Shown: positions 733 through 51,797 of the stretch, in pieces
Layout of the letters: each line of letters starts with the position of its first letter
Position numbering within the stretch: the first letter of the stretch is position 1
Origin: an uncultured Candidatus Peribacteria bacterium
GTDB taxonomy: Bacteria > Patescibacteriota > Gracilibacteria > Peribacterales > Peribacteraceae
Assembly: GCA_964608325.1 (NCBI GenBank)
Contig: CAZSMX010000006.1
Location: forward strand, 1,426-65,425
Direction: 5' to 3'
DNA length: 64,000 bases
Notes under the pieces: generated by a model
The model's input: only the letters and a program-made list of their open reading frames with translations
Database searches by the model: none
What the model was told of the DNA's origin: nothing
Translations under genes and position numbers: made by a program

Positions 733-1335
733 ATGATTGGTCTAATCGCCCGCAAAATCGGTATGTCCCGCGCCTTCCTCCCCAACGGTGAGGCGGTTGC
801 CGTGACTTACCTCAAGGTCAGCCCGAACACGGTCGTCCGTCAGAAGACGAAGGAGAAGGACGGCTACGACGCCGTGGTCCTCGGCATGGAGCCGAAGGAA
901 TGGAAGACCCGCAAGGGCAACACGCACACGCGCTACAAGTTCCAGAAGGAATGGCAGGTCGACTCCCTCGACGGTTTCGAAACCGGCAAGGAGCTCACCG
1001 TCTCCATCCTTCCCCAGGACAGCAAGGTGACGATCATGGGTATCTCCAAGGGAAAGGGTTTCCAGGGAGTCATGAAGCGCCACGGGTTCCACGGAGGTCC
1101 GGGATCCCACGGTTCGCACTTCAAGCGCGAGCCGGGTTCCGTGGGTATGCGCGCCGATCCGGGACGCATCTTCAAGGGACACCGAATGGCAGGCCACATG
1201 GGCTTGGACAAGACCACCATCAAGAACCGCACGATCGTTGTGTGCGATGAAAAAGAAAATATCGTTGCCGTCACGGGACCCGTACCGGGACCCACCGGCA
1301 GTGCGGTATTCCTTACCCTCGAATCCTCCAAATAA
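733..1335 (+). CDS. rplC: 50S ribosomal protein L3
   Basis: GKGFQGVMKRHGFHGGPGSHGS...MAGHMG signature. First gene of the conserved r-protein string. Confidence 0.97.
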   Translation: MIGLIARKIGMSRAFLPNGEAVAVTYLKVSPNTVVRQKTKEKDGYDAVVLGMEPKEWKTRKGNTHTRYKFQKEWQVDSLDGFETGKELTVSILPQDSKVTIMGISKGKGFQGVMKRHGFHGGPGSHGSHFKREPGSVGMRADPGRIFKGHRMAGHMGLDKTTIKNRTIVVCDEKENIVAVTGPVPGPTGSAVFLTLESSK

Positions 1336-1337
1336 TC

Positions 1338-2090
1338 ATGACGATCGATGTCTATTCCATGACCGGCCAGAAAGGAAAGAGCATGGAGCTCCCTGAATCC
1401 CTCTTCGGAGCGGATGTGAACTGGGGCCTCATGCACCAGGCCGTGATGTTGCAGCAGGGCAACCGCCGTTCCAGCGGTGCACACGCCAAGACGCGCGGAG
1501 AAGTGCAGGGTTCCACCAAGAAGCTGTTCGCACAGAAGCACACGGGCCAGGCACGCCGCGGCGCGGTACGCAGCCCGCTCCTGCGCGGAGGAGGAAAGAC
1601 GTTCGGACCCCGCAACGTCATGAACTACGAGCGCAGTATGCCGAAGAAGATGCGCCACGCGGCTCTCCGCTCCTGCCTGAGCCTCCAGGCCCAGAAGGGA
1701 AACGTGATCGTCCTCGAGGGATACCCCGACGACGTGAAGACGAAGACGTTCGCGACGCTGCTCGGCAAGCTGCCGATCGAAGCCGGACGCAAGGTCCTCG
1801 TCGTGAGCCCGGGCAAGATGAAGTCCCTCCAGCTCTCCGCACGCAACGTTCCGTCCGTCACGACGGTCTACGCCAGCTACCTCAACCCCGAATCCATCCT
1901 GAACTCCCGCTACGTCGTTTTCCTCGTCGATTCCATCAAGGAAGCCGAGCAGATCTTCGGAAAGAAGGACATGATCTCCCAGAAGGTGAAGCCGCTCGCG
2001 AAGAAGGAGGTGAAGGAGAAGGCTCCCAAGGCACCCAAGAAGGCAGCCGCCGCCAAGAAGCCGGCCGCCAAGAAGAAAGCTTCTAAATAA
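1338..2090 (+). CDS. rplD: 50S ribosomal protein L4 with Lys/Ala-rich C-terminal tail
   Basis: KTRGEVQGSTKKLFAQKHTGQARRG...GGGKTFGPR motif. Position after rplC. Tail: KKEVKEKAPKAPKKAAAAKKPAAKKKASK. Confidence 0.96.
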   Translation: MTIDVYSMTGQKGKSMELPESLFGADVNWGLMHQAVMLQQGNRRSSGAHAKTRGEVQGSTKKLFAQKHTGQARRGAVRSPLLRGGGKTFGPRNVMNYERSMPKKMRHAALRSCLSLQAQKGNVIVLEGYPDDVKTKTFATLLGKLPIEAGRKVLVVSPGKMKSLQLSARNVPSVTTVYASYLNPESILNSRYVVFLVDSIKEAEQIFGKKDMISQKVKPLAKKEVKEKAPKAPKKAAAAKKPAAKKKASK

Positions 2091-2128
2091 TTACCCTCTC
2101 GATACTCTCCCTACCTACGAATTACTCC

Positions 2129-2428
2129 ATGGAACTCTCCCGCGTCATCGTCGGCCCCGTCACCACGGAAAAGTCCGAGCGCCTGAAGGCAGGCCGCACC
2201 TACACCGTGCGCGTCGCCCCCGAGGCAACCCGCATCGAAGTGCAGAAGGCGCTTGAGTCGTTCTATGACGTCGAAGTCTCCAGCGTGCGCATCCTGCACG
2301 TCCGCGAGAAGACCCGCATGCTCAACTCACACCGCAGCCTGACGAAGCGCCACACCCAGAAGCGCGCCCTCGTGACGCTGGCCCCGAAGAGCAAGTTGCT
2401 CGACCTCTCCCAATTCAAAGCTTCCTAA
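2129..2428 (+). CDS. rplW: 50S ribosomal protein L23
   Basis: Size (99 aa), synteny between rplD and rplB, and a YTVRVAPEATRIEVQKALE-type sequence. Confidence 0.95.
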   Translation: MELSRVIVGPVTTEKSERLKAGRTYTVRVAPEATRIEVQKALESFYDVEVSSVRILHVREKTRMLNSHRSLTKRHTQKRALVTLAPKSKLLDLSQFKAS

Positions 2429-2434
2429 CCTCCC

Positions 2435-3283
2435 ATGGCTCTCAAGAAGATGAAACCAACGACTCCGGGACGCCGCCAGATGATGGTCGCGGACTTCTCG
2501 GACCTGAGCAAGAAGCGCCCTGAAAAGTCGCTGTCCCATGGTAAGAAGCGCTTGTCCGGCCGCGACGGCAAGGGACAGGTGTCCATCCGCCACCGCGGAG
2601 GAGGCCACAAGAAGCTGTACCGCGACATCGACTTCAAGCAGCTCGATAAGAAGGGAATCCCGGGAACGGTTCTCGGCCTCGAATACGATCCGAACCGCAC
2701 CGCGCGCATCGCCCTCATCCAGTACGTCGACGGTGAAAAGCGCTACATCCTGGCTCCCCAGACCCTGAAGGCAGGCGACCAGATCGTCTCCGGAGAGCGC
2801 ACGAAGGTGAAGGTGGGCAACCGCATGCAACTCCAGCACATCCCGGTGGGATACAAGGTATTCAACCTCGAGATGCAGGCAGGACGCGGCGGACAGATCG
2901 TCCGCAGCGCGGGAACGTCCGCGACGCTCGTGGGATTCGACGGCGACTTCGCCCTCATCGAGCTTCCGTCCTCCGAAATGCGCCGTATCCGCAAGGAGTG
3001 CAGCGCGACCATTGGCATCGTCAGCAACCCGGAGCATAATCTCATCAACATCGGAAAGGCCGGACGCATGCGCTGGAAGGGCCGCCGCCCGCAGGTTCTC
3101 GGAACGGCCATGAACGCCGTCGACCACCCGCACGGAGGAGGAGAAGGACACTCGTCCATCGGTCTCAAGGCCCCGAAGACCCCGTGGGGAAAGAAGGCCC
3201 TTGGCGTCAAAACCCGCAAGCGCAAACTCAAGAGCAACGACCTTATCGTTCGCCGCCGCGTGAAGAAGAACAAGAAGAAGTAA
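2435..3283 (+). CDS. rplB: 50S ribosomal protein L2
   Basis: GGGHKKLYR and MNAVDHPHGGGEG motifs. Confidence 0.98.
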   Translation: MALKKMKPTTPGRRQMMVADFSDLSKKRPEKSLSHGKKRLSGRDGKGQVSIRHRGGGHKKLYRDIDFKQLDKKGIPGTVLGLEYDPNRTARIALIQYVDGEKRYILAPQTLKAGDQIVSGERTKVKVGNRMQLQHIPVGYKVFNLEMQAGRGGQIVRSAGTSATLVGFDGDFALIELPSSEMRRIRKECSATIGIVSNPEHNLINIGKAGRMRWKGRRPQVLGTAMNAVDHPHGGGEGHSSIGLKAPKTPWGKKALGVKTRKRKLKSNDLIVRRRVKKNKKK

Positions 3284-3322
3284 TCTCCTCTTTCCTAACC
3301 CCAACCCTACTCCTACCCACCC

Positions 3323-3646
3323 ATGTCCCGCTCCCTCAAGAAAGGCCCCCACATCGACGAGAAGTTGATGAAGAAGGTCTCGGCCATGATCGCCAAAGGC
3401 GAGAAGAAGATCATCAAGACGTGGGCTCGCGACTGCGACATCCCGCCGGAGTTCGTGGGATTCACCTTCGCGGTTCACAACGGCAAGGAATTCCCGGCCG
3501 TCTACGTTACGGAACAGATGGTAGGACACAAGCTCGGGGAGTTCTCCTGGACCACGAAGTTCAAGGCTCACGGAGGCAAGGCCGCCGCTGCAGATGCAGC
3601 GCCCGGTGCCAAGCCCGCAGCAGCCCCCTCAGCTCCCGCAAAATAA
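3323..3646 (+). CDS. rpsS: 30S ribosomal protein S19 with Ala/Pro-rich tail
   Basis: [12 protein letters not shown]...[21 protein letters not shown]. Confidence 0.97.
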
Positions 3647-3668
3647 TCCCTGAATTACTCACCCTCTC

Positions 3669-4106
3669 ATGAAAGCATTCCTCAAGTCAGCACCGATCGC
3701 CCCTAAGAAGGCAAACATCATCGCCAAGATGGTGCGAGGCATGCCCGTCGTCGACGCGCAGATCGCGCTGCGCCGCACGAACAAGAAGGCCGCGCGCATG
3801 GTGGAGAAGCTCATCGCTTCCGCCGTCGCCAACGCGACGCACAACGACAAGCAGGACAAGCAGCTCCTCGTCGTGAAGACCCTCTACGTCAACCAGTCCA
3901 TCGGTATGCGCCGCGGAATGCCCAAGGCCCGCGGTCAGACGCGTCCGTACCGCAAGTTCATGACGCACATCACGCTGGAACTCGGCATTGCCGACCTCGA
4001 GGGCAAGGAACAGAAGAAGGCCGAAAAGAAAGCGGCCAAGGCCCCGAAGGCTCCCAAGGCATCCTCCAAGAAGACCACTCCTGATACTTCCTCTTCCGCT
4101 TCCTAA
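3669..4106 (+). CDS. rplV: 50S ribosomal protein L22 with Lys/Ala-rich tail
   Basis: APKKANIIAKMVRGMPVVDAQIALR motif and synteny. Confidence 0.96.
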   Translation: MKAFLKSAPIAPKKANIIAKMVRGMPVVDAQIALRRTNKKAARMVEKLIASAVANATHNDKQDKQLLVVKTLYVNQSIGMRRGMPKARGQTRPYRKFMTHITLELGIADLEGKEQKKAEKKAAKAPKAPKASSKKTTPDTSSSAS

Positions 4107-8587: not shown

Positions 8588-8932
8588 ATGACGCTTTCCC
8601 GCTCCCTCTCCCGGCTCTCCCGCAAGAAGCGCATCCGCGCCCGCATCCAGGGTACGGCCGCGCGTCCGCGCCTCACGGTGCACCGCTCCCTGACGCAGAT
8701 CCGCGCCCAGGTGGTGGACGACTCCACGGGCAAGACGCTCGCAGCCGCTTCCACCAAGGAGGCGAAGGCGAAGATGACCGTCGAGGGCGCCAAGAAGGTC
8801 GGCGAACTCCTGGCCAAGAAGGCCAAGGACGCCGGCGTTACCTCCGTCGTCTTCGACCGCAACGCCTACAAGTACCACGGCCGCGTGAAGGCCCTGGCCG
8901 ACGGCGCCCGCGAAGGAGGCCTCCAATTCTGA
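8588..8932 (+). CDS. rplR: 50S ribosomal protein L18
   Basis: [20 protein letters not shown] and C-terminal [19 protein letters not shown]. Confidence 0.96.
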
Positions 8933-8963
8933 TCCCAACCCTAACCCTAATCCTATCCCTACG

Positions 8964-9578
8964 ATGTCCGCCAAGACCACCAACACCGACCGTCAGAACA
9001 AGCGAGACCGCGGTCAGCGCGCTCCCTCCGAGTTCACGGAAACGACGCTCTCGTTGGACCGCGTCACCCGCGTGGTGAAGGGAGGTCGCCGCATGCGTTT
9101 CCGCGCCGTCGTGGTCGTCGGTGACCGCAAGGGCCGCGTGGGAATGGGAACGGGCAAGGCGAACGAAGTGCAGGTTGCCGTCCAGAAGGCCACGAAGGAC
9201 GCCAAGCGCTACATGATTCGCATCCCGCTCGTGAAGGGAACGATCCCGCACCAGGTCGACGTGAAGTTCAAGTCCGCCAAGCTCCGCATCATGCCCGCTT
9301 CCGAAGGAACGGGAATCATCGCCGGAGGCGCCCTGCGCGTCGTGTTGGACCATGCCGGCGTGAAGAACGTGCTGGCCAAGCGCTTCGGCACGGGAAACAA
9401 GCTCGTTAACGCACAGGCTACGTTCCGCGCCCTTAAGCTCCTGAAGCCTGCTCGCCAGAAGGATCTCGAAGTCGTCGAAGTGAACAAGGATGCTGTCCAA
9501 GTGAAAGAAGTCGGTTCCGACGAGATCAAGCACGGCGGAATCGTTGAGAAGAAGAAAGAGAAGAAGGACGCGAAGTAA
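8964..9578 (+). CDS. rpsE: 30S ribosomal protein S5 with C-terminal extension
   Basis: [34 protein letters not shown] motif. Confidence 0.97.
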
Positions 9579-9583
9579 GCCTC

Positions 9584-12577
9584 TTAGGACGGATTGCGGG
9601 AAGTAAGATCCCGATAGTCGTAATTTGCCATTCCCCGAAGGGCTTGGATCAGTTCGGGCTTTTTCCTGTATCCGCTCCATAAGACCCAAATCGGGTCGCT
9701 TTTGTCCGGCCATGTCGCCGGGTCCTCCGTCATCTCGGAAAAGGCTTTTTCGGCCCTCGCTCCCTCGTACCATTCATGCGGTTTCAGTTCCGTTCTCTCA
9801 ACGTCCGGCCTGTTTTTTGCATAGAATTCCCAGAGGGCGAATGCGTCATCCGATACGCGCTTGCGGTCCGATGTCAGCCACAGGCCGCGTGTTGTGGCCA
9901 GCTCCATGGCGATGTCGTACATCACCGGTCCGATGCCGCCCGTGGCGCTGGAAGATTCCACGACCATCACTTGGGAATTCGGGATCCGCTGGCAATCGAT
10001 CATTCCTTTTACTTCTCCGTCGAAAGCAATCGTGATGCGCTGATCGCTATCGGTTACTTTTATGTTGGTATTCTTCAAGGAAAGCAATTTTTCCAACGTC
10101 GTGCGCTTTTTGGGCGCTACTTCGACCGCGGAGTCACCGGATTGCGCTTCTTTCTGATGTACCGCCGTTTCCTTGTTCGTCTCGGCATCGCCATCGGGGC
10201 TTGCCTCGGGTACATCAGGAAGCGCAGCCGCCTTCGCGAACGCCGCTTCGAATTCCGCCTTCGTCTTCTTCAGTCCGTCGAGTTCCTCGAAGATCTGCTT
10301 CAGCTCGGTGTCCCCGACCTTGTTCTTTTTCAGGAGCGCGGCGGGATCGGCGGAAGACAGGAGGTCTTCCACGTGGATGCCTCCGCTCAATTTGTGCACG
10401 TTCATCCGTCCCAGGTTCGCCTTGTTCACCAGCTGGGACAGGCCATGGAGTTCCGCATCCGGCGCGCTGCGCAGCTTCCTCAGAAGGCCGCTCATTCCCT
10501 GCTGGCCGAATTCCGCGAAACTGAGTCCGAAGAACATCGCGTTGCTCTGCAGGTTCTCGATGAATTCGCCGCCCTTGATGGTGGTGTCGAGCGTGGTTCC
10601 GACCAAGAGGTCCGCCGTGCCTTCGCCCGTCGCGCCGATGAGGCGCGTAGCTAGGCTCGACGCGTCGTCGAGGGAACCCAAGAGCTTCGCGCCGCCGGCC
10701 TTGCCCGCGATGCTGAAGATCTTCGAGAGTCCGCCCGCCTGTTGTAGCAGTCCCGCGCGCGATAGTTGGAACGCCGCGCGTCCCGCCGAGATGTAGCGTG
10801 CCGCGCCCATCGTCGCGGTGTTCACCGCGAAGTCTTTTCCGTATGTCTTGAATGCGTCTTCCAAATTGTCGAATCCCTGCTGGTTGATCACCGCGTTGAC
10901 GCCCGTCATTGCCGCGCCTCCCGCAAGGGCTGCCGCGACGACGCCGAGTCCTCCGGTCGCGATACCGACGGCGATACCCGCGGCGATCATGGCCGCGATC
11001 TTGGCGCCGATCGCCACGTAGCTCCACGTCTTGTCGGACACGTCGTATCCGTATCCCTGGATGTCCGCCAGCAGTTGCCATGCTTCCACCTGCATCGGGT
11101 TGAGTCCCGGCTCGCCGATGGTGGCGTTGATTTCATTCAGAGTCGCGGCGCCCCCGATGGTGCCGTCCAGGAAGGTTTCGAATTTCACATACGCGCTTTC
11201 CAGGAAGGGGATGAAATCCTTGTTGATTTCCCCCTGGATGGTTTCCTGATTGATTCCCGAGCCGCTCATCTGTGCCTCGATGTTGCGCAGGAGGGCGTAC
11301 TGCGCGGAAATCCCGGTGACGTCCGTCGGATTGCCGTTCAGTTGCGCTTCTATCTGCACGATCTGGTCGGTGCGTTGTTCGGGCGGCAGTGACGCGAACT
11401 TCGAGAGGATGGCCCCCTTTTTTTCGGAGACGTAGTTTTTCAGTGGGTTTTTCTCACTCAGGGTTTTTTCGACGTAGCGCATCGCCAGTTCCTCGAATCC
11501 CATGGCGTCCTTCGCCATCGCCTCCGCGAAGTCGATATCGGTGAGGGCGCTGTCGATGGGGGAGCCGCGGTCCGTGAAGAGTTTCGCCAGTTCCATCGCG
11601 TGGCGGCAGAAATCGGCGGCCCTGGCCGGGTCGTTTCCGATGTTGCCCTTTTCTTCCGCCAGTTTTTTCTGGATGGCGGCTTTGCACGTATTGATGAGTT
11701 TTCCGTACGTTTCCTTCAGGCCGCTGCTCTGCCAGTCGTTCCCGTCGATGGAAGACAGCGTCTGCTGCACCCAATCGATCGCTTCTTCCATGGTCATGTT
11801 CGGGATCATTTCGGCAGCCTGCTGCGTCGCCAGGGTCGCGTCGCGCAGTTCCACGTTCTCCTCATCCTCGTTCACGCTCGCCACCAGTTCGGTATAGCGC
11901 TTCGCGCGTTGCAAGTAGAGGGCGCGGAGGTGTTCGTATTCCTTGCCGCCCTTCGGGTCTGCGGACGCCAGCGCCTTCGACAGCTCGCTCAGGTTCCTGC
12001 GGATCGATTGCGCGATGCTTTGCAGAAGGTTTTTTTCCAACTGAGCCTCATTGCTTCCGTCTGCCAGCCATTCGTCCTTGTCCTTCATTTCCTCCAGCAC
12101 GTGCTCCAGGAAGGGGACGTATCCCAAGCTGTCGTGGATGTACGCAACGTGGTATTCCACGTCAGGCGTGATCGCGCTGTCCGCGGCTACTTTTTCCTTG
12201 GCCAGGTAATCGGCAGCCACGCCCGCGAGCCGTTCCGCTTGGAGATCTTTCTTCGCCTCGGCCTTCAACCCCAAGTCGTCCGCGAGCTTATTCATCTTCT
12301 CCCGGTTCGTTTTCACATCCGCGTCCACTCCCGCGGTCGGGAAGCGTTCGCCGTCCAGCCATTTGCCGACCGGTTCCGAATTATTCCTCCACTGCCATGT
12401 GTTTCCGTTCTTGCGGAACTCCACGTTCGTGATCTCCGTTCCGTTGAATCCCGCGCCGAGTCGCAATTCTTTTTTCCACACGCCGTCCTTTTGGACGAGG
12501 CCGGCTTGCTCCAGTTTTTGGGCGTCCGCGTCCGTATTGTTTTGGTCGGGCCGTTCCTGGAATGATTCGGGTGACAT
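9584..12577 (-). CDS. giant hypothetical protein (997 aa): helical N-terminal region, Ala/Gly-rich hydrophobic hairpin, GNAT-like C-terminal domain
   Basis: Uninterrupted 2994-nt ORF whose antisense ORFs are low-complexity noise. Residues ~518-565 (YVAIGAKIAAMIAAGIAVGIATGGLGVVAAALAGGAAMTGV) form a glycine-zipper-like hydrophobic segment. Residues ~868-905 (QVMVVESSSATGGIGPVMYDIAMELATTRGLWLTSD) resemble GNAT motif A. No signal peptide was seen. Confidence 0.8.
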   Translation of the reverse strand: MSPESFQERPDQNNTDADAQKLEQAGLVQKDGVWKKELRLGAGFNGTEITNVEFRKNGNTWQWRNNSEPVGKWLDGERFPTAGVDADVKTNREKMNKLADDLGLKAEAKKDLQAERLAGVAADYLAKEKVAADSAITPDVEYHVAYIHDSLGYVPFLEHVLEEMKDKDEWLADGSNEAQLEKNLLQSIAQSIRRNLSELSKALASADPKGGKEYEHLRALYLQRAKRYTELVASVNEDEENVELRDATLATQQAAEMIPNMTMEEAIDWVQQTLSSIDGNDWQSSGLKETYGKLINTCKAAIQKKLAEEKGNIGNDPARAADFCRHAMELAKLFTDRGSPIDSALTDIDFAEAMAKDAMGFEELAMRYVEKTLSEKNPLKNYVSEKKGAILSKFASLPPEQRTDQIVQIEAQLNGNPTDVTGISAQYALLRNIEAQMSGSGINQETIQGEINKDFIPFLESAYVKFETFLDGTIGGAATLNEINATIGEPGLNPMQVEAWQLLADIQGYGYDVSDKTWSYVAIGAKIAAMIAAGIAVGIATGGLGVVAAALAGGAAMTGVNAVINQQGFDNLEDAFKTYGKDFAVNTATMGAARYISAGRAAFQLSRAGLLQQAGGLSKIFSIAGKAGGAKLLGSLDDASSLATRLIGATGEGTADLLVGTTLDTTIKGGEFIENLQSNAMFFGLSFAEFGQQGMSGLLRKLRSAPDAELHGLSQLVNKANLGRMNVHKLSGGIHVEDLLSSADPAALLKKNKVGDTELKQIFEELDGLKKTKAEFEAAFAKAAALPDVPEASPDGDAETNKETAVHQKEAQSGDSAVEVAPKKRTTLEKLLSLKNTNIKVTDSDQRITIAFDGEVKGMIDCQRIPNSQVMVVESSSATGGIGPVMYDIAMELATTRGLWLTSDRKRVSDDAFALWEFYAKNRPDVERTELKPHEWYEGARAEKAFSEMTEDPATWPDKSDPIWVLWSGYRKKPELIQALRGMANYDYRDLTSRNPS

Positions 12578-12580
12578 GGG

Positions 12581-13216
12581 TTAATTCGAAGCGGTATCGC
12601 CTTCGTTTTCTTTCTCCTCGCGCCTGCTCGCATTCCTCGCGACGATGTCGGAAATGCTCGGGATCGGTCTGTCCGATGCCTTCCAATCCACGTCGATGTC
12701 CGGCAGCGCGGGAAGTACGTCGATAGCTTCCTCTTCTTCTTTTTGCACGGCGTCCAGACGGTATATGGAATTTTTCGTCCGCACGTACGCGTTGCCATAC
12801 TGGTCCATGAGACACTGCGTCACCGGGCTCGTTGCTCCCGCTCCTTCATTCAGCGAAAGCGATTCGCCCAGGGCCACGTCCTCGTCCATTTCCCCCCAAT
12901 CAGACATCTTGGCGCGGACGGTGTTCGTCTGCGGATCGACCTTCGACAGTCCGACGATGCTGCCTTTTTGAAAAGGGAATTCCGCAGGATCCACTTCCAC
13001 CAATGTCGGCGACTCCCGCCCGTCGGCCGTCGGGTCGCCTTCCCTGATGACCTTCATCATCTTTTTCCGATCGTCTCCGAGCATCCTGGCCATTCGTTTG
13101 ATCATCTTCAGGAAACGGCGGCGACTGTCGTCTTCGTTACGTTCCTCCGGTTGCCGCGCTTCAGGCTGCACGCCTTCGTTTTCATGTTCTTCCCGCTGTT
13201 GTTTGTTTTCTGCCAT
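12581..13216 (-). CDS. hypothetical protein with highly charged N- and C-terminal tails (211 aa from ATG 13216)
   Basis: ORF 12581..13261. The internal ATG at 13216 is preferred because it avoids overlap with the upstream gene. Only 3 nt separate it from the 997-aa gene. Confidence 0.6.
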   Translation of the reverse strand: MAENKQQREEHENEGVQPEARQPEERNEDDSRRRFLKMIKRMARMLGDDRKKMMKVIREGDPTADGRESPTLVEVDPAEFPFQKGSIVGLSKVDPQTNTVRAKMSDWGEMDEDVALGESLSLNEGAGATSPVTQCLMDQYGNAYVRTKNSIYRLDAVQKEEEEAIDVLPALPDIDVDWKASDRPIPSISDIVARNASRREEKENEGDTASN

Positions 13217-13224
13217 AGGATATT

Positions 13225-14340
13225 TTAGGGTAAAAGGACGCCGCCGAAGTGCTGGACCCACAGGCCCCCGAACACTCCGATGCCAATGTCCGAATAATCA
13301 GGATTGAGAATCGCTTCCTTGTGGGAAGGGGATTTCATCCACGCCGTCACCACTTCCTCCGCCGTCTTCTGTCCGCGCGCGATATTCTCGCCGAACGTGT
13401 ATCCCTTGATGCATCCGCAATCGCGGGAGAACGAGCGGTCGTAGTAACCCGTCGCCCCGACGCGGTCCTTCAGCGTCTTGCCGTCCGGGCTCACATGCCC
13501 GAAGAATCCCTGTTCCGCCATGTCGATGGCGTACTGCTGGGCGGAGCCCTCCAAGTAGACGTTGTAGGTGAGGGGTTTGATTCCTTCCTTTCTGCGGATG
13601 TCATTCACGCGGTCGATGATTTGCGTGCGTATTTCCGGAAGCGTCAGGAGAATCGACGGCGCTTCCTCTGCTGCCGGGGCCGCGTGCGCAGATCCGGGCG
13701 GGGGAGTCGTGTCTAGGATCGCGTTCGTCTTGCGCGTGGAAATCACCGAATAAATCGTCAGTCCGCCTTTCGCTTCCTCCTTCGCCAGTTGCTTTTCCAT
13801 CTGGCCTCCCGCTACTCCCTGCGGTACCGATGCCGAGATGAAGCGTTCCATGGCGAATGCTGCTTCCGTTTCCAGCATACGGAGCGTTGGCTGGAGGGAG
13901 TGCGGATTCTTGAGGTCGAAGAGGCGGTACTTCTGCGCGATGCCCGCGTATTTCTTGTACCAGGCGTCATCCGGGATATCCGTGTACAGATACGGGTATT
14001 CCTTCGCGATGCCGAAGGTGAAGGACAGCATTTTCAGGAATTCGGCGCGTGAAACGGAACCCATGGGGCGGAGGTTTCCGTGTTCATCGGGCGACAGGAT
14101 GCCGAACTGCGCCGCCGCAAGCATGGCGCTTTCGTACCAGCTTCCTTTCGGGATATCCCCGAATTGCCCTTTGTTTTCAATGACGGGCAGCGTCGTGCTG
14201 CGTGCCGACAGCAACACGGAAACGAGTTCCGCGCGCGTCACGTAGTTCGTCGCTTCGATATCCGCACTCACCGCCAACGAACGCCCGGCGCCGAGCGCGA
14301 CGATCATCAAGCCTATGAGGGCGAGACGGATACGGGTCAT
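13225..14340 (-). CDS. secreted SLH-repeat protein with C-terminal CAP/SCP (YkwD-like) domain
   Basis: N-terminal signal-like MTRIRLALIGLMIVALGAG. Two SLH-like repeats (FGDIPKGSWYESAMLAAAQFGIL...SRAEFLKML and YTDIPDDAWYKKYAGIAQKY). CAP motifs: FFGHVSPDG, GENIARG, WMKSPSHKEAILNP. Confidence 0.75.
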   Translation of the reverse strand: MTRIRLALIGLMIVALGAGRSLAVSADIEATNYVTRAELVSVLLSARSTTLPVIENKGQFGDIPKGSWYESAMLAAAQFGILSPDEHGNLRPMGSVSRAEFLKMLSFTFGIAKEYPYLYTDIPDDAWYKKYAGIAQKYRLFDLKNPHSLQPTLRMLETEAAFAMERFISASVPQGVAGGQMEKQLAKEEAKGGLTIYSVISTRKTNAILDTTPPPGSAHAAPAAEEAPSILLTLPEIRTQIIDRVNDIRRKEGIKPLTYNVYLEGSAQQYAIDMAEQGFFGHVSPDGKTLKDRVGATGYYDRSFSRDCGCIKGYTFGENIARGQKTAEEVVTAWMKSPSHKEAILNPDYSDIGIGVFGGLWVQHFGGVLLP

Positions 14341-14384
14341 CGAGTGGGAAACGGAGAGGGGAGTGAATGTGAATTTTTCTATCT

Positions 14385-14390
14385 ATTATA
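14385..14390 (-). promoter_or_regulatory. candidate -10 box (TATAAT on the minus strand) for the antisense cassette
   Basis: Plus-strand attata at 14385-14390 lies ~45 nt upstream of the ATG at 14340. The -35 is poor. The leader that follows is G-depleted. Confidence 0.3.
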
Positions 14391-14548
14391 CCTTTTTACG
14401 CCATTTTAGGCCAGGCTCTAGGGAAATACCTCATACTGTATTAAGGCATTGGTCAAGGTCTTTCCCATTCCCGTAAAAACACCAGCAATTTGCCCTTTAC
14501 GGGGTGGGAATCACCGTTTACTATGGCGCCCTCGAACACCCTTTTCCC

Positions 14549-14992
14549 ATGCTTCACAACCTCCGACCAGCATCCGGCTCCCGTCCTTCCAGAAAGCGCA
14601 TTGCCCGCGGTAACAGCGGCGCAGGCGGTACGACCGCAGGACGCGGAACCAAAGGACAGCATTCCCGCACGGGAAAGGGTCGCAAGCACGGCTTTGAAGG
14701 AGGACAGGTTCCGCTGCTCCGCCGCCAGCCGAAGCTCGGCGGTTTCAAGCGCGATCGCCGCAAGGAATACGAAGTCGTGAACCTTTGGTCGTTGGAAGAG
14801 GTCCTTCCGGCCGGAACGTACACGATCGAAGATCTGCGCCAGAAGCGCCTGATCCGCAAGGGAAAGCTCGTGAAGATCCTCGCAGACGGCGAGATCTCCA
14901 AGAAGTTCGTCCTCGAAGCGCATGCCGCTTCGAAGAAGGCCAAGCAGATGCTTGAAAAGGCGGGCGGAACGCTCACCATTCTCCGCGACTAA
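14549..14992 (+). CDS. rplO: 50S ribosomal protein L15
   Basis: MLHNLRPASGSRPSRKRIARGNSGAGGTTAGRGTKGQ matches the L15 N-terminus. The ORF's upstream extension to 14504 is rejected. Confidence 0.95.
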   Translation: MLHNLRPASGSRPSRKRIARGNSGAGGTTAGRGTKGQHSRTGKGRKHGFEGGQVPLLRRQPKLGGFKRDRRKEYEVVNLWSLEEVLPAGTYTIEDLRQKRLIRKGKLVKILADGEISKKFVLEAHAASKKAKQMLEKAGGTLTILRD

Positions 14993-15003
14993 CCCCCACA
15001 GAC

Positions 15004-16287
15004 ATGTTCTCGTACTTGCGACAGATCTGGCATACGAAGGATCTCCGCCGACGCATTTTGATCACGGTCGGACTTCTGGTCGTATACCGTATTACGGCCC
15101 ACACCCCCATCCCGGGCACCGATCCTCTGATTCTCCAGCAGTTCCTGGCATCGCGCGGAGCGGGTGGAATCCTTGGCGTGTTCGCTTCCCTCACGGGAGG
15201 AGCCGTCGACAATTTCTCGATCGCCCTGCTCGGTTTGTCCCCGTATATCAACGCATCCATCGTCATCCAGCTCTGCACCGTTATCTTCCCGAAGCTTGAA
15301 GCCCTCAGTAAAGAGGGTATCCAGGGACAGCAGGCATTGAACCGCTACACGCGCTGGCTCGCGCTGCCGCTCGCATTCGTCCAGAGTTACGGATTCCTGC
15401 TCCTGATCGCCCAGCCGGGCACGGGAACGGGGCTTGTGGATCTGTCCTTCCCGAACGTTCTCCTTCCGATGCTTTTCGCGACGGTCGGTTCGCTGTTCAT
15501 CATGTGGCTGGGCGAGATGATTTCCGAGAAGGGAATCGGCAATGGCATCTCCATGATCATCTTCGCAGGTATCGTTGCCAGCATCCCGACGAACATCGGA
15601 GCCCTCTTCATCGGGGGAACCGGCGTAGGGGGCCAGGCCGTTTTCTTCGGAATCCTGGCCATCGCCATGCTTATCGCCGTTGTGCTCTTCACCGATGCGC
15701 ACCGCCTCGTTCCGCTGACGTACGCCAACCAGGGCGCCGGACGCGGAGTGGCCGGAAACCTCCCGATCCGCCTCAACCAGGCGGGCATGATCCCGATCAT
15801 CTTCGCGGTCTCACTCATCACGCTGCCGGCTATCGCCGCCCAGTTCCTCCAGAATTCGCCGCGCTTCTCTGGAATCGCGTCTTTCATTACGACCCATTTG
15901 AATGCCAATAACCCGGGATGGGCCTACATCGTCGCCTACTTCGTTCTCGTCATCATCTTCACGTACTTCTACGTGTCCGTCACGTTCAAGCCTGCGGACC
16001 TTGCCGAGAGTATCCAGAAGAGAGGAGGATTCATTCCGGGAACGCGCCCGGGTGCCGCCACCGCGAGCATGCTCCAGAAGATCAGCAACCGCCTGAACCT
16101 GTGGGGCGGACTCTTCCTCGGCATCATCGCCATTATCCCGCTCGTGTTCACCAAGTTCACGGCGCTCGGCAGCTCCAGCCTGCTCATCTCCGGCTCCAGC
16201 CTCATCATCGTGGTGGGGGTGGTGATGGAACTCATCCGCCAGATTAACGCGCAGATGCTCGCGCACGATTACGAGAAGTTGGTCTGA
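15004..16287 (+). CDS. secY: preprotein translocase subunit SecY
   Basis: 10-TM protein after rplO, with LGISPYINASIV-like and GGFIPGTRPG motifs. Confidence 0.97.
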   Translation: MFSYLRQIWHTKDLRRRILITVGLLVVYRITAHTPIPGTDPLILQQFLASRGAGGILGVFASLTGGAVDNFSIALLGLSPYINASIVIQLCTVIFPKLEALSKEGIQGQQALNRYTRWLALPLAFVQSYGFLLLIAQPGTGTGLVDLSFPNVLLPMLFATVGSLFIMWLGEMISEKGIGNGISMIIFAGIVASIPTNIGALFIGGTGVGGQAVFFGILAIAMLIAVVLFTDAHRLVPLTYANQGAGRGVAGNLPIRLNQAGMIPIIFAVSLITLPAIAAQFLQNSPRFSGIASFITTHLNANNPGWAYIVAYFVLVIIFTYFYVSVTFKPADLAESIQKRGGFIPGTRPGAATASMLQKISNRLNLWGGLFLGIIAIIPLVFTKFTALGSSSLLISGSSLIIVVGVVMELIRQINAQMLAHDYEKLV

Positions 16288-16528
16288 TATCGTGAAAGAC
16301 AAACCTCCGGTTTTTCTTTCACGGGCTATCTTTTCGGCATGGAGCGTCTCCACTTCGGGCGTAGCCCTCGTTCGACGCGGTTCGTTTGATGATCGTCCAT
16401 ATGGAGTGTCACGGATGATGTGTCACACAACATATTGGATTCGCGAGCAGTTCACCTTTGCCAATGTGAAGCAGATTGTTCTGGACGGAGATAGCCGCGA
16501 CCATTAGTCTCGCGTCTCCCTTCCATTC

Positions 16529-17083
16529 ATGGATCTCTCTCTGTTCGGTATCCAGGGCTGTGGCAAAGGAACGCACGCGAAGATCCTCGCCGCAGAATTC
16601 GATTATGATATTTTCGGCGCGGGATCCCAGCTGCGCAGGGTGGCAGCGCAGGACACGGACGTCGGTCGCATCGTGAAGCAACATACGGATGCGGGAGATC
16701 TCGTTCCCATCGAGATCACGATGGGCATCACCGCCGATTGGCTGAAGGAGCATGCTTCAAGAAAGGTCATTTTCGACGGCATTCCGCGCAGCATGGAACA
16801 GCTCGAGTATTTCAGCAAGATCGTTGAGGACTCCGGCCGCACGCTCATGGGCGTGCATATCGTGCTGAGCGAGGACGCCGCGTTCGACCGCATCATGAAG
16901 CGCGCGTCGGGACGCATCGACGACGCCACGGAGGGGTCCATCCGCCGCCGTCTCCAGATCTTCCGCGAGACGACGATGCCGGTGATCGAGTGGTACCGCG
17001 AGCGCGGCGCGATGGTCGACATAGACGGGGACGGCCCCATCGAGGAGGTCTACGCGAACATCAAAAAAGCGCTGGCACTCTGA
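16529..17083 (+). CDS. adk: adenylate kinase (short form)
   Basis: P-loop GIQGCGKGTHA, DGIPRSMEQ, and synteny after secY. Confidence 0.9.
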   Translation: MDLSLFGIQGCGKGTHAKILAAEFDYDIFGAGSQLRRVAAQDTDVGRIVKQHTDAGDLVPIEITMGITADWLKEHASRKVIFDGIPRSMEQLEYFSKIVEDSGRTLMGVHIVLSEDAAFDRIMKRASGRIDDATEGSIRRRLQIFRETTMPVIEWYRERGAMVDIDGDGPIEEVYANIKKALAL

Positions 17084-17159
17084 GACTTTCGCTTCCGTTA
17101 GCCATTTTAGACGGTAATTTGGCCTCCAAACCGGGTCCGTTTTGCTTTACAATGCCCGC

Positions 17160-24720: not shown

Positions 24721-24757
24721 CGAGTGCTCATGAGAGAAGGCCGGAGGTTTTTTCGTG

Positions 24758-25114
24758 TTACGCCAGCGCCATCCTCACGTAGTACAGGCTCGATCCGCTG
24801 TCGGTATCGAGGATGAACTTCGCGTCCAGCAGCTGAAGCTGGATGATCGTCTGGCACATGCGCAGGAGCATGCGCGGCGGAAGGGCGACGCCCGATTCCA
24901 GTACCACGGCGCAGAGGCCGGCGGAGTCCTGGGATCTCAAATACTTTTCGCCCGACTCGCGAATGACATTGCACAAACTCTCGTGCATCTGGCTGACGTA
25001 CTGTTCAACGTACGGCTCCAGTTGTTCCACGGGGAGGTCCTGGATTTCCGGAAGCGCCTCGACGATGTCGAGGTCCTTGTGGATGGCGTGCGCGATGCAG
25101 GTATCGATCGTCAT
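24758..25114 (-). CDS. hypothetical protein (118 aa from ATG 25114)
   Basis: ORF 24758..25228. The internal ATG is preferred because it lies just downstream of a G-free CA-rich leader. Confidence 0.45.
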   Translation of the reverse strand: MTIDTCIAHAIHKDLDIVEALPEIQDLPVEQLEPYVEQYVSQMHESLCNVIRESGEKYLRSQDSAGLCAVVLESGVALPPRMLLRMCQTIIQLQLLDAKFILDTDSGSSLYYVRMALA

Positions 25115-28958: not shown

Positions 28959-29083
28959 TGGAGCCGACGACCGGATTTGAACCGGTGATCCGCCTTAGGC
29001 GGATTTACGATACCTATGAGCTGCGCTTTGGTTATTTCAGAACGTCTTTGCAAGCAAAGACGTAGCAACTGAGCTACGTCGGC
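28959..29083 (-). tRNA. tRNA-Thr(CGU)-like unit 1: D-loop insertion plus altered anticodon-stem/variable region (possible pseudogene or novel tRNA-like RNA)
   Basis: Same acceptor, T arm, CCA and ATCGTAA loop as the canonical copy. 47 nt replace the 6-nt D-loop segment, and ACCTAGGGTC is replaced by the hairpin ATCCGCCTAAGGCGGATC. Confidence 0.5.
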
Positions 29084-29101: not shown

Positions 29102-29218
29102 TGGAGCCGACGACCGGATTTGAACCGGTGACCCTAGGTTTACGATACCTATGAGCTGCGCTTTGGTTATTTTAGAACGTCTTTGCAAGCAAAGACGTAG
29201 CAACTGAGCTACGTCGGC
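29102..29218 (-). tRNA. tRNA-Thr(CGU)-like unit 2 with net 41-nt D-loop insertion (possible pseudogene or novel tRNA-like RNA)
   Basis: Identical to the canonical copy except that GTAGAG is replaced by CTACGTCTTTGCTTGCAAAGACGTTCTAAAATAACCAAAGCGCAGCT. Confidence 0.5.
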
Positions 29219-51711: not shown

Positions 51712-51797
51712 ACCACATAAGATACTTAATAAACTTATAGACAAATGCTAAATAAAATAAGCATGTAGTTTTGAATTTGTAGTGATATTATTTATAT

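What the first reader, a model, noticed from the sequence alone, without database searches (positions are those of the whole stretch)
9579..14548. Three-gene antisense cassette splits the spc ribosomal operon exactly at the rpmD (L30) position
Seen in sequence: rpsE ends at 9578 and rplO starts at 14549, both on the plus strand. Between them lie three tightly packed minus-strand genes (14340-13225, 13216-12581, 12577-9584), separated by gaps of 8 and 3 nt. The stop of the 997-aa gene lies 5 nt from the rpsE stop, so the two transcription units converge with no room for a terminator hairpin. No L30-like ORF exists anywhere in the gap. The cassette has the same high-GC composition as its flanks, and its 5' leader is G-depleted like the r-protein leaders, so it does not look like a recent import. 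Established knowledge: rpsE-(rpmD)-rplO-secY is one of the most conserved gene strings in bacteria, and loss of L30 is known for CPR lineages. I am not aware of an opposite-strand envelope/giant-protein module occupying that slot. Inference: rplO-secY and the genes after them must have acquired their own promoter in 14341-14548. Head-on transcription into rpsE could couple cassette expression inversely to ribosome synthesis.
Basis: partly seen in the sequence, partly recalled or inferred. Interest (0 to 1): 0.8.

Follow-up and report, generated by a model that had tools for sequence, protein, structure and literature searches.

The report
Ancient split in Peribacteria ribosomal operon
In this candidate-phyla-radiation bacterium, and in every relative of its class examined, the normally unbroken ribosomal-protein gene string is cut between the S5 and L15 genes by a variable slot that here holds three opposite-strand genes for a cell-wall protein, a small acidic protein and a modular membrane protein with a swappable enzyme-like tail.

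Summary
rpsE ends at 9578 and rplO starts at 14549. Three packed minus-strand genes lie between them, and there is no L30 gene. It is not an assembly artefact: six other assemblies of close relatives carry an antisense cassette in the same slot. All 55 Peribacteria genomes examined have 0.7-7.1 kb between rpsE and rplO.

The ancestral content of the slot looks like a sense-strand DJ-1/PfpI gene plus an antisense SLH-CAP wall-protein gene. The window's clade lost DJ-1 and acquired variable cargo behind SLH-CAP.

A sigma-70-like element (TTKACS-N17-TAnnnT) lies just upstream of rplO in 35 of 54 genomes and in 0 of 54 control regions.

The 997-aa protein belongs to a family with a conserved helical core, a hydrophobic hairpin and interchangeable C-terminal domains (at least five types, one calpain-like). 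The window's tail is a phage-associated domain with a probable GNAT-like fold.

Verdict: a real, undescribed, class-wide variant of operon architecture, of moderate interest. The function of the cargo genes is inferred only.

The parts
8964..9578 (+). rpsE (uS5, 204 aa, with a Lys-rich C-terminal extension). It is the last gene of the upstream r-protein transcription unit.
   Evidence: Pfam S5 N- and C-terminal domains; TIGR01021 at 178 bits, above its cutoff.
9579..9583 (.). 5-nt spacer between the convergent stop codons of rpsE and the 997-aa gene.
   Evidence: Direct read. No canonical intrinsic terminator was found, and terminator-like hits in the region are not above shuffled expectation (11 against 8.2 +/- 2.9).
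9587..10207 (-). C-terminal 'tail' module of the 997-aa protein (about residues 791-997). It is a phage-associated domain with a probable GNAT-like fold; the motif GGIGPVMYDIAMELA starts at residue 880.
   Evidence: No DNA homology to the nearest relative L010, but 70% aa identity to L007/P0002. Free-standing and embedded homologs exist. AF2 model: pLDDT 83. Foldseek top hits are GNATs, with E=0.02 in PDB and 3e-4 in BFVD. The profile's only PDB hit is the GNAT 2i79, E=0.06. GC3 is 0.65 against 0.80 in the core.
10208..12232 (-). Conserved core of the 997-aa protein (residues 116-790): an all-alpha region plus a hydrophobic segment.
   Evidence: 44-85% identity to P0002-P0013. About 45 further cluster representatives of 1000-3200 aa. 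AF2 gives pLDDT around 80 for residues 15-510 and is poor for 510-708. No Pfam, NCBIfam, PHROGs, PADLOC or PDB relative.
10883..11026 (-). Gly/Ala-rich hydrophobic segment of about 48 residues (518-565), long enough for a transmembrane helical hairpin.
   Evidence: Kyte-Doolittle windows above 1.4, maximum 2.12. Many invariant Gly/Ala columns in alignment A3.
12257..12547 (-). N-terminal small beta-rich module (residues 11-107). It is duplicated in L005 and L006 and also occurs in unrelated proteins.
   Evidence: tblastn shows two copies in L005 and L006. Hits to P0064, P0065 and P0135. AF2 predicts strands at residues 28-65.
9584..12577 (-). Whole 997-aa gene, the third gene of the antisense cassette.
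   Evidence: ORF. Homologs occupy the same slot in L001, L005, L006 and L007.
12581..13216 (-). 211-aa acidic protein with no hydrophobic segment (226 aa if it starts at GTG 13261). Function unknown.
   Evidence: ORF. Homologs only in L005 (84%), L006 (78%) and L007 (49%, placed after the big gene there). No family or PDB hits.
13225..14340 (-). 371-aa secreted SLH + CAP (SCP/PR-1, YkwD-like) cell-wall protein. This is the conserved, ancient antisense occupant of the slot.
   Evidence: Pfam CAP E=3e-20 and SLH E=1e-8, both above gathering cut-offs. N-terminal hydrophobic signal-like segment. Antisense homologs lie in the uS5-uL15 gap of 32/54 Peribacteria.
14385..14390 (-). Perfect TATAAT on the minus strand, 45 nt upstream of the SLH-CAP ATG. 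Candidate -10 element of the cassette promoter.
   Evidence: Coordinates verified. Lies in a block that is invariant in window, L001, L005, L006 and L007 (alignment A1). The -35 is poor, and no class-wide motif was found.
14496..14524 (+). Sigma-70-like promoter candidate for rplO-secY: TTTACG (14496-14501), a 17-nt spacer, then TACTAT (14519-14524). The -10 ends 24 nt before the rplO ATG.
   Evidence: Verified. Conserved in the five-genome alignment. The element class TTKACS-N17-TAnnnT occurs in 35/54 loci upstream of rplO, in 0/54 of each of two control regions, and in 0.10 loci on average per shuffle (maximum 2).
14549..14992 (+). rplO (uL15, 147 aa), first gene of the downstream unit.
   Evidence: TIGR01071 at 137 bits.
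15004..17083 (+). secY (15004-16287) and adk (16529-17083), continuing the downstream unit. These are followed by map, infA, rpmJ, rpsM, rpsK, rpsD, rpoA and rplQ.
   Evidence: Pfam. Same order in L001, L093 and L117.

Best explanation
In the class Peribacteria the S10-spc-alpha ribosomal supercluster is permanently divided into two transcription units at the uS5|uL15 boundary, the position that L30 occupies in other bacteria.

The split is ancient. Its likely original content was a co-directional DJ-1/PfpI gene after rpsE and an opposite-strand gene for a secreted SLH-anchored CAP-domain wall protein, transcribed divergently from rplO. The downstream unit (rplO-secY-adk-map-...) is driven by its own sigma-70-type promoter immediately upstream of rplO.

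The space between rpsE and the 3' end of the SLH-CAP gene behaves as a permissive, fast-turnover slot. In the window's clade DJ-1 is gone. Two extra genes have been added behind SLH-CAP, with 8-nt and 3-nt gaps, so they are probably co-transcribed from the SLH-CAP promoter. They run convergently into the end of rpsE.

The larger cargo gene encodes a modular protein. It has a small N-terminal beta module, a conserved helical core with a hydrophobic hairpin that probably anchors or inserts it in a membrane, and a C-terminal enzyme-like domain exchanged by recombination between lineages. Here that domain is phage-related and GNAT-like. I infer that it is a surface or host-interaction (effector-like) protein.

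Shown: the anatomy, conservation, slot variability, promoter-like element and modularity. Inferred: actual transcription, membrane topology, enzymatic activity and biological role.
For: Split is real and class-wide:
- 54/54 non-redundant Peribacteria loci, plus L117, have a gap of 677-7107 nt.
- L30-less non-CPR controls have uS5 and uL15 only 52-94 nt apart.

Ancestral content:
- DJ-1 lies in sense in 39 loci (Pfam E=2e-30), SLH-CAP in antisense in 32, and ACT in antisense in 14.
- The order 'S5> DJ1> <SLHCAP L15>' is scattered over the whole uS5+uL15 tree.
- Independent gene calls in L093/L094 show the same order.

Own promoter: TTKACS-N17-TAnnnT occurs within 120 nt upstream of rplO in 35/54 loci, against 0/54 in two control regions and a shuffle mean of 0.10. 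It is also present where only the sense DJ-1 fills the gap. The window copy is at 14496-14524, in a block conserved across five genomes.

Slot turnover:
- Window, L005 and L006 carry SLH-CAP+mid+big.
- L007 carries SLH-CAP+big+mid.
- L001 carries SLH-CAP+big plus a PP2C-like gene.
- L117 carries SLH-CAP plus two unrelated genes.

Modularity and fast evolution of the big gene:
- Against L005, uS5 is 99.5% and SLH-CAP 97% identical, but the big core is 80-85% identical and the tail is unrelated.
- There are at least five tail types. One is calpain-like (PF00648, 27.1 bits against a cut-off of 23.8).

Tail domain: see the GNAT-like evidence listed under parts.

Native composition and no mobile-element hallmarks.
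Against: - No transcript data exist. Promoters, co-transcription and termination are inferred from sequence only.
- The window's promoter candidate matches only 8/12 consensus positions and fell below the generic scanner's threshold.
- No class-wide promoter motif was found for SLH-CAP.
- Other CPR lineages were not sampled as outgroups (one search returned only Peribacteria-like uL15). So 'Peribacteria-specific' rests on established knowledge of CPR r-protein synteny, not on a test made here.
- The NJ tree used for ancestral inference rests on about 350 aa and is not robust.
- The effector-like role of the 997-aa protein has no direct support. There is no signal peptide and no recognized secretion or trafficking domain. 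The hairpin region has a low-confidence model (pLDDT 30-40). All GNAT-fold evidence is sub-threshold (best PDB E=0.02, TM 0.39).
Confidence: 0.75

Rival explanations
1. Assembly or binning artefact: a chimeric contig joined two halves of the r-protein cluster through unrelated DNA.
For: A single metagenome-derived contig with no read data. The exact junction 'tail-A stop, 5 nt, rpsE stop' is unique to the window.
Against: The same slot is occupied in six independent assemblies of close relatives from different projects (NCBI, Logan, JGI), and in all 54 species representatives. Flanks align collinearly at 88-94% DNA identity with L010 on both sides.
Confidence: 0.01
2. Recent horizontal import: the whole three-gene cassette is a genomic island or prophage remnant that landed in the operon.
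For: The tail domain is phage-associated: 22 IMG/VR contigs and a tape-measure-type protein, P0074. The tail has lower GC3 than the core. Cargo differs between close relatives.
Against: SLH-CAP has occupied the slot since deep in the class. GC and GC3 are host-like. There is no integrase, no tRNA, no flanking repeats and no PHROGs hits for the big or mid proteins. The big-protein core is chromosomal and syntenic in other Peregrinibacteria. Only piecemeal recombinational gain, of tail and cargo, fits the data. That is already part of the best explanation.
Confidence: 0.08
3. Regulatory device: convergent, terminator-less transcription of the cassette into rpsE down-regulates ribosome synthesis, or the reverse, by transcriptional interference or antisense RNA.
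For: Only 5 nt separate the stop codons, with no canonical terminator on either strand. Tight convergent junctions (0-70 nt) recur at this slot in other lineages.
Against: The spacing is not conserved: 192 nt in L005, 2 nt in L006, and different genes abut rpsE in L001, L007 and L117. In most of the class a sense DJ-1 gene separates rpsE from the antisense gene. No antisense RNA or Rfam element was found. No expression data exist.
Confidence: 0.07
4. Classical polymorphic toxin-immunity module: the 997-aa protein is a contact-dependent toxin and the 211-aa protein is its immunity factor.
For: A conserved N-terminal region with at least five interchangeable C-terminal domains, one a calpain-like protease. 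The tail is shared with phage and giant multi-domain proteins. The gene evolves faster than its neighbours.
Against: The 211-aa gene lies upstream of the big gene, not downstream. It stays 78-84% identical in L005 and L006, whose tails are unrelated to the window's, so it does not co-vary with the tail. It is absent from L001 and from distant homolog loci. No LXG, RHS, PAAR, TPS or other trafficking domain was found, and there are no PADLOC or Pfam hits.
Confidence: 0.08

Closest known systems
Canonical S10-spc-alpha ribosomal protein cluster (E. coli / B. subtilis type; evolutionary analyses in PMC8046335 and PMC6735719)
   Same: The gene order on either side is canonical...rplF-rplR-rpsE | rplO-secY-adk-map-infA-rpmJ-rpsM-rpsK-rpsD-rpoA-rplQ, all on one strand.
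   Different: rpmD is absent. 0.7-7.1 kb of unrelated genes, mostly including an opposite-strand gene, lie inside what is elsewhere a single spc operon, and rplO carries its own promoter-like element. In the excerpts I read, the benchmark studies describe multigene insertions between operons and occasional gene deletions. I did not see an antisense cassette inside spc described there.
L30-less lineages with contiguous rpsE-rplO (CPR in general, per PMC5220378; Erysipelotrichaceae controls found here)
   Same: The L30 gene is missing.
   Different: In the L30-less controls retrieved here, uS5 and uL15 are 52-94 nt apart. In Peribacteria they are never adjacent. Other CPR lineages were not examined here.
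SLH-anchored CAP / SCP / PR-1 (YkwD-like) bacterial wall proteins
   Same: Signal-peptide-like N-terminus, an SLH domain and a C-terminal CAP domain, both above Pfam gathering scores.
   Different: Below the TIGR02909 YkwD cutoff (79 against 171 bits) and the DalA cutoff (58 against 200 bits). The conserved placement antisense inside an r-protein cluster is not a feature I know for that family.
Polymorphic toxin / modular effector proteins (conserved N-terminal region with swappable C-terminal enzymatic domains), and phage 'polyvalent' or tape-measure proteins carrying enzymatic modules
   Same: Conserved core plus at least five unrelated tails. One is calpain-like and one is GNAT-like. The GNAT-like domain is shared with phage ORFs, a tape-measure-type protein and 2-7-kaa giant proteins.
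   Different: No recognized secretion or trafficking domain and no co-varying immunity gene. The core has no detectable relative in Pfam, PDB or PHROGs. The genes are chromosomal and syntenic rather than on a mobile element.
GNAT (Gcn5-related N-acyltransferase) superfamily
   Same: The predicted topology is beta-beta-beta-beta / G-x-G-P loop / alpha / beta / alpha / beta. Top Foldseek hits are KKT23, Rv0802c, GCN5 and NAGS. Phage NAT_SF proteins appear among the BFVD hits. The profile's only PDB sequence hit is GNAT 2i79.
   Different: All scores are below significance (PDB E at least 0.019, TM 0.39 or less). There is no Pfam GNAT hit even at E<=5. The N-terminal beta1-alpha1-alpha2 part of the fold is not evident.

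Membership tests
Canonical spc operon | rpsE-(rpmD)-rplO-secY contiguous and co-directional, with no foreign genes between | tested here: not met
   4,970 nt with three minus-strand genes lie between rpsE and rplO. The same break is present in 54/54 Peribacteria loci.
Canonical spc operon | Presence of rpmD (L30) | tested here: not met
   The L30 HMM finds nothing in the window or in the Peribacteria loci, while the control scores E=2e-34. This agrees with 'all CPR lack L30' (PMC5220378).
Canonical spc operon | Single transcription unit from the spc promoter through secY | not testable with these tools
   Sequence evidence points the other way: a conserved sigma-70-like element upstream of rplO in 35/54 loci against 0/54 controls. 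Testing this needs RNA-seq or 5'-end mapping.
CAP superfamily (PF00188) with SLH anchoring (PF00395) | Domain matches above the curated gathering scores | tested here: met
   CAP 73.6 bits (cut-off 21.1) and SLH 35.3 bits (cut-off 20.8).
YkwD subfamily (TIGR02909) / DalA (NF052539) | Score above the NCBIfam curated cutoff | tested here: not met
   79.1 against 171 bits, and 57.9 against 200 bits.
GNAT acyltransferase superfamily (tail of the 997-aa protein) | GNAT fold with the beta4-(Q/R-x-x-G-x-G/A)-alpha3 acyl-CoA pyrophosphate-binding loop | tested here: inconclusive
   The AF2 model (pLDDT 83) shows the strand-loop-helix at the invariant G-x-G-P. Foldseek's best hits are GNATs, but at E=0.019 and TM 0.39. 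BFVD gives NAT_SF hits at E=0.03-0.1. The profile hit to 2i79 has E=0.063. No Pfam hit.
GNAT acyltransferase superfamily (tail of the 997-aa protein) | Acyl-CoA-dependent acyl transfer activity | not testable with these tools
   Requires biochemistry.
Polymorphic toxin systems | Conserved N-terminal region joined to variable C-terminal toxin or enzyme domains | tested here: met
   At least five unrelated tail types on a 44-85% identical core. One tail matches Peptidase_C2 above its cut-off.
Polymorphic toxin systems | Cognate immunity gene immediately downstream that co-varies with the toxin domain | tested here: not met
   Nothing lies downstream in the window, L005 or L006. The 211-aa gene is upstream and does not co-vary with the tail.
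Polymorphic toxin systems | Recognizable secretion or trafficking domain (LXG, RHS, PAAR, TPS, WXG, signal peptide) | tested here: not met
   No Pfam or NCBIfam hits and no N-terminal hydrophobic segment.
Mobile genetic element / genomic island | Integrase or transposase, flanking repeats, tRNA target, atypical composition | tested here: not met
   No such genes are present. Repeats are only short chance-level matches. There is no tRNA nearby. Composition is host-like.
DJ-1/PfpI passenger of the Peribacteria uS5|uL15 slot | Sense-strand DJ-1/PfpI gene directly after rpsE | tested here: not met
   Present in 39/54 loci by the strict in-gap count (45 loci by tblastn), but absent from the window and its clade.

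The most novel reading that the evidence does not exclude
The uS5|uL15 break is a selected expression platform rather than a tolerated scar. A bidirectional promoter region ties production of a major Sec-exported wall protein, and of whatever cargo is placed behind it, to the rplO-secY unit. The cargo slot is where Peribacteria keep rapidly diversifying host-interaction weapons. On this reading the 997-aa family would be a new class of membrane-inserting modular effectors. These would exchange phage-derived enzymatic tails (GNAT-like, calpain-like and others) and would need no immunity partner, because the target is another organism.
Probability: 0.15. Interest if true: 0.75.

Novelty: new variant of a known kind. 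Interest (0 to 1): 0.5.

Why it matters
The rpsE-(rpmD)-rplO-secY string is among the most conserved gene orders in bacteria. It is used as a syntenic block for CPR phylogenomics and for checking the contiguity of metagenome-assembled genomes (MAGs). A whole class in which it is always interrupted matters for four reasons:

1. It gives a cheap synapomorphy-like marker for Peribacteria.
2. It warns against treating a break there as misassembly.
3. It shows that the downstream half can run from its own promoter. In about ten lineages the -10 ends 8-11 nt before the ATG, which suggests leaderless rplO transcripts.
4. It exposes a small hypervariable locus in otherwise streamlined genomes. That locus points to candidate surface and effector proteins of organisms whose lifestyle and partners are still unknown.

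The modular 997-aa family and its phage-shared tail domain are concrete targets for experiment.

Tried and rejected
- Family libraries: Pfam, NCBIfam, PHROGs and PADLOC gave no hits for the 997-aa and 211-aa proteins, and Pfam gave none for the tail even at E<=5.
- PDB sequence searches: nothing significant for the tail, the 211-aa protein or the core profile. The only matches were low-complexity ones to SNF5.
- Full-length AF2 model: mean pLDDT 59. Foldseek returned only generic alpha-solenoid matches, none with E<1e-3, so it was uninformative.
- Rfam: no RNA family in or near the cassette.
- The conserved block AATTTGCCCTTTACGG does not recur elsewhere in the window, so it is not a dispersed operator.
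- The generic promoter scanner found 0 sites in 8900-15100. Terminator-like sites were not enriched.
- A class-wide sigma-70-like motif upstream of SLH-CAP was not found (0/22). Start-codon placement in that test was imprecise.
- Flanking repeats or mobile-element signatures: none.
- tblastn of the 997-aa protein against GenBank phages: no match.
- Source names for distant core homologs: almost none were available.
- Outgroup synteny: the last homolog search, with uL15, listed only Peribacteria-like proteins, so non-Peribacteria CPR were not examined.
- Replication origin: the idea that a cumulative GC-skew minimum near 24.5 kb marks an origin, and so bears on gene orientation, could not be resolved in a 64-kb window. 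I dropped it.
- The ~63-aa ORFs directly after uS5 (cluster 5) are most likely in-frame uS5 C-terminal tails picked up by my ORF extraction (inferred, not tested), and the L30 HMM gives them no hit.
- Minus-strand 'cluster 4' ORFs: rejected as shadows of DJ-1 on the opposite strand.

Full report
OBSERVATION.
- rpsE is 8964-9578 (+), with stop TAA at 9576-9578.
- After a 5-nt spacer (GCCTC) comes the stop of a 997-aa minus-strand ORF, 9584-12577.
- Three nucleotides further lies the stop of a second minus-strand ORF, 12581-13216 (ATG, 211 aa). An upstream GTG at 13261 would give 226 aa.
- Eight nucleotides further lies the stop of a 371-aa ORF, 13225-14340.
- A 208-nt intergenic region (GC 0.46) then precedes the rplO ATG at 14549.

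Pfam and NCBIfam confirm uL18, uS5, uL15, SecY and Adk on the plus strand. The rplO start at 14549, rather than the GTG at 14504, is supported in two ways: the TIGR01071 alignment begins there, and a 2-nt indel in L007 lies between the two candidates.

It hit nothing in six-frame translations of the window or of any Peribacteria locus. The control scored E=2e-34. GC and GC3 of the three genes resemble those of the flanks.

ORGANISM. Homologs of the 997-aa protein and the retrieved uS5 loci are all labelled Candidatus Peregrinibacteria, Peribacteria or Peribacteraceae. This is a candidate-phyla-radiation (CPR) class. CPR bacteria as a whole are reported to lack L30 (PMC5220378).

NOT AN ARTEFACT, AND NOT UNIQUE. 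Looking up the contigs that encode homologs showed an antisense cassette in the same uS5|uL15 slot in independent assemblies:
- L001: 371 + 1252 + 314 aa.
- L005: 371 + 207 + 1390 aa.
- L006: 371 + 212 + 1374 aa.
- L007: 379 + 987 + 176 aa.
- L117: 370 + 280 + 221 aa.

A scan of one genome per GTDB species with uS5 returned 63 Peribacteria loci. In all 54 non-redundant loci that contain both genes, uS5 and uL15 are 677-7107 nt apart and never adjacent. L30-less non-CPR controls from the same scan (Erysipelotrichaceae and others) have them 52-94 nt apart.

WHAT FILLS THE SLOT ACROSS THE CLASS. I clustered the gap ORFs and confirmed the families by tblastn and Pfam.
- A sense-strand DJ-1/PfpI gene directly after rpsE, in 39 loci (Pfam E=2e-30).
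- An antisense SLH-CAP gene in 32 loci, with 37 of 38 copies on the minus strand.
- An antisense ACT-domain gene in 14 loci.
- 46 of 54 loci have at least one recognized antisense gene. Four have only DJ-1.

On a rough uS5+uL15 neighbour-joining tree, the arrangement 'S5> DJ-1> <SLH-CAP L15>' is scattered throughout. One large subclade has ACT instead of SLH-CAP. The window's clade lacks DJ-1. Independent gene calls in L093/L094 show S5> DJ-1> 139 aa> 46 aa> <CAP L15>, and the same uL15 protein also lies on a 1.21-Mb contig. I therefore infer that the split and the antisense SLH-CAP gene are ancient, and that the other two genes of the window's cassette are recent cargo.

THE SLOT TURNS OVER QUICKLY. 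Within the window's own clade the genes between SLH-CAP and rpsE differ.
- The middle gene sits before the big gene in window, L005 and L006. It sits after it in L007 and is absent in L001, which has a PP2C-like gene instead.
- L117 (uS5 92% identical) has two genes unrelated to either.
- L012 carries a different 1033-aa antisense protein that shares only a linker module with the big family.
- No integrase, tRNA or flanking repeats explain this turnover.

TRANSCRIPTION SIGNALS. The generic scanner found no strong sigma-70 site, and terminator-like hairpins were not enriched. Comparative analysis is more informative.
- The SLH-CAP/rplO intergenic region has two blocks conserved across five genomes.
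- The first block holds a perfect TATAAT on the minus strand (14385-14390), 45 nt upstream of the SLH-CAP ATG.
- The second holds TTTACG-17 nt-TACTAT (14496-14524), ending 24 nt before the rplO ATG.
- Across the class, the element TT[G/T]AC[C/G]-N17-TAnnnT occurs within 120 nt upstream of rplO in 35/54 loci. It occurs in 0/54 of each of two same-cluster control regions. In 500 shuffles it occurs in 0.10 loci on average (maximum 2).
- The element is also present where only sense-strand DJ-1 fills the gap. In about ten loci its -10 ends 8-11 nt before the ATG, which suggests leaderless rplO mRNAs.

A comparable class-wide motif upstream of SLH-CAP was not found.

The 5-nt convergence with rpsE is not conserved. 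It is 192 nt in L005 and 2 nt in L006, and other genes abut rpsE in L001, L007 and L117. Tight convergent junctions are also common at this slot elsewhere. So I see no support for a conserved interference mechanism.

THE THREE PROTEINS.

1. The 371-aa protein has a signal-like N-terminus, an SLH domain and a CAP (SCP/PR-1, YkwD-like) domain, both above Pfam cut-offs. It falls below the YkwD and DalA NCBIfam cut-offs. It is most simply a Sec-exported, wall-anchored CAP protein.

2. The 211-aa protein is acidic, has no hydrophobic segment, and matches no family or structure. It is 78-84% identical in L005 and L006, whose big-protein tails are unrelated to the window's. It therefore does not behave as a tail-specific immunity protein.

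3. The 997-aa protein has four parts.
   - A small N-terminal beta module (residues 11-107). It is duplicated in L005 and L006 and also found in unrelated proteins.
   - A conserved all-alpha core (116-790). It is shared at 44-85% identity with 12 homologs and, more distantly, with about 45 cluster representatives of 1000-3200 aa.
   - A 48-residue Gly/Ala-rich hydrophobic segment within the core (518-565), long enough for a membrane hairpin.
   - A C-terminal tail (about 791-997).

Tails fall into at least five unrelated types on the same core. One type (P0006/P0008) matches calpain-type cysteine proteases above the Pfam cut-off.

Against its nearest relative L005, uS5 is 99.5% and SLH-CAP 97% identical. 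The big core is only about 80-85% identical, and the tail DNA has no homology at all. Yet the window's tail is 70% identical to that of the more distant L007. Tail GC3 (0.65) is lower than core GC3 (0.80). Together this indicates recombinational tail exchange and fast evolution.

THE TAIL DOMAIN. It also occurs in these contexts:
- As free-standing 160-250-aa proteins.
- In a phage-like contig (L091).
- In 22 IMG/VR viral contigs, mostly as ORFs of about 200-250 aa.
- Embedded in 2-7-kaa giant proteins. One has a tape-measure domain (P0074) and one a Ser/Thr kinase (P0055).

A free-standing copy (P0015, L089) sits in exactly the rplJ-rplL-divergent slot that holds a full-length family member (P0007) in the syntenic locus L008.

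An AF2 model from a 10-sequence alignment is confident (pLDDT 83, pTM 0.81). Its strands and helices are arranged around the invariant G-x-G-P-L-L-Y-D-I-A-M-E loop-helix. Three results point to a GNAT-like fold:
- The best PDB Foldseek neighbours are GNAT acyltransferases: KKT23 at E=0.019, probability 0.91 and TM 0.39, then Rv0802c, GCN5 and NAGS.
- The best viral-library neighbours are uncharacterized Caudovirales proteins (E=3e-4), followed by annotated NAT/GNAT proteins.
- The only PDB sequence hit of the tail profile is a GNAT (2i79, E=0.063).

These three weak results agree, but none is significant. I call the fold 'probably GNAT-like' and leave superfamily membership undecided.

The full-length model is poor in the hydrophobic region and finds only generic alpha-solenoids.

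INTERPRETATION. The best-supported account has these parts:
- Peribacteria carry an ancient, fixed break of the r-protein supercluster at uS5|uL15.
- rplO-secY and the genes after it run from their own promoter.
- An antisense SLH-CAP gene is the long-term resident of the gap.
- The stretch between SLH-CAP and rpsE is a permissive, fast-turnover slot.

In the window that stretch holds a small acidic protein and a modular, probably membrane-associated protein with an exchangeable, phage-related enzymatic tail. I regard the latter as effector-like. That functional label is an inference from modularity, rapid divergence and domain sharing with phage proteins, and nothing here tests it directly. 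The rival explanations are an assembly artefact, a recent island, a regulatory head-on device, and a classical toxin-immunity pair. Each is contradicted by at least one test made here, as set out in the rivals section.

LIMITS.
- There are no expression data.
- Non-Peribacteria CPR outgroups were not retrieved.
- The tree used for ancestral inference is crude.
- The literature check was limited to the held library. The founding Peribacter genome paper does not mention the break (PMC4736985). The benchmark operon-cluster study describes insertions between operons and gene deletions in the passages I read (PMC8046335). I therefore consider the class-wide split undescribed, but I cannot exclude a mention elsewhere.

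VERDICT. Observation confirmed. Interpretation partly supported. This is a new variant of a known kind: an r-protein operon architecture with a lineage-specific hypervariable slot. Interest is moderate (0.5). It is a clean, general and testable comparative result, with a lead on CPR surface or effector proteins, but it does not reveal a new mechanism.

Noticed in passing
window 51000-54700: A low-GC island (GC 0.30-0.40 against about 0.59 elsewhere). It encodes a 523-aa HTH/TM sensor-like protein (50140-51711, +), a 271-aa protein that looks like a SAM-dependent methyltransferase (51798-52613, +), a 484-aa protein that looks like a sensor histidine kinase (52681-54135, +) and a 156-aa membrane protein (54186-54656, -). 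It is probably horizontally acquired. The gene labels come from reading the translations only and were not tested.
   Followed up: partly
window 28962-29083 and 29105-29218 (minus strand): Two Rfam tRNA matches of unusual length (122 and 114 nt; 29.7 and 40.9 bits) lie next to tRNA-Thr (29236-29311). ARAGORN does not call them. They may be tRNAs with insertions or introns, or decayed copies.
   Followed up: partly
L073-L087 (Erysipelotrichaceae, Faecalicoccus, Faecalitalea and others): These non-CPR genomes have uS5 and uL15 only 52-94 nt apart, so there is no L30 gene in the slot. The Clostridiales control L088 has a 336-nt gap that does contain L30.
   Followed up: no
window 17084-17141; L010 10758-11556; L001 5621-5947: The adk-map spacer is a second small variable slot in the same cluster. 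L010/L005 carries an insertion of about 800 nt (a 205-aa ORF), L001 a 108-aa ORF, and the window nothing.
   Followed up: no
L008/L009 10001-13321 and L089/L090 7001-7633: In two syntenic Peregrinibacteria genomes, the slot divergent from rplJ-rplL holds different things. One has a full-length big-protein homolog (P0007, 1106 aa). The other has only a free-standing 210-aa homolog of the window's tail domain (P0015). This is a second association of the family with an r-protein operon border.
   Followed up: partly
L011, L024, L029, L032, L033, L046, L051, L052, L061, L067 (upstream of rplO): The -10 of the conserved promoter-like element ends 8-11 nt before the rplO ATG. This implies leaderless or near-leaderless rplO mRNAs in these Peribacteria.
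   Followed up: partly
L012, gap ORF at 908-4009 of the extracted uS5-uL15 gap segment, not locus coordinates (1033 aa, antisense): A different large antisense protein in the uS5|uL15 slot. It shares only the '...GFTREQ...LLRMGVCG + poly-Pro' linker module with the big-protein family, so that linker is itself a shuffled module.
   Followed up: partly
window about 24000-25000: Cumulative GC skew reaches a minimum and changes sign near 24.5 kb, just after the r-protein cluster. This could be a replication-related switch or simply a gene-strand effect. It cannot be resolved in 64 kb.
   Followed up: partly
window 8964-9578 (uS5 residues about 165-204): uS5 carries a Lys/Glu-rich C-terminal extension of about 40 residues. 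Its length and sequence vary among Peribacteria: alignments to relatives end anywhere between residues 161 and 204.
   Followed up: no
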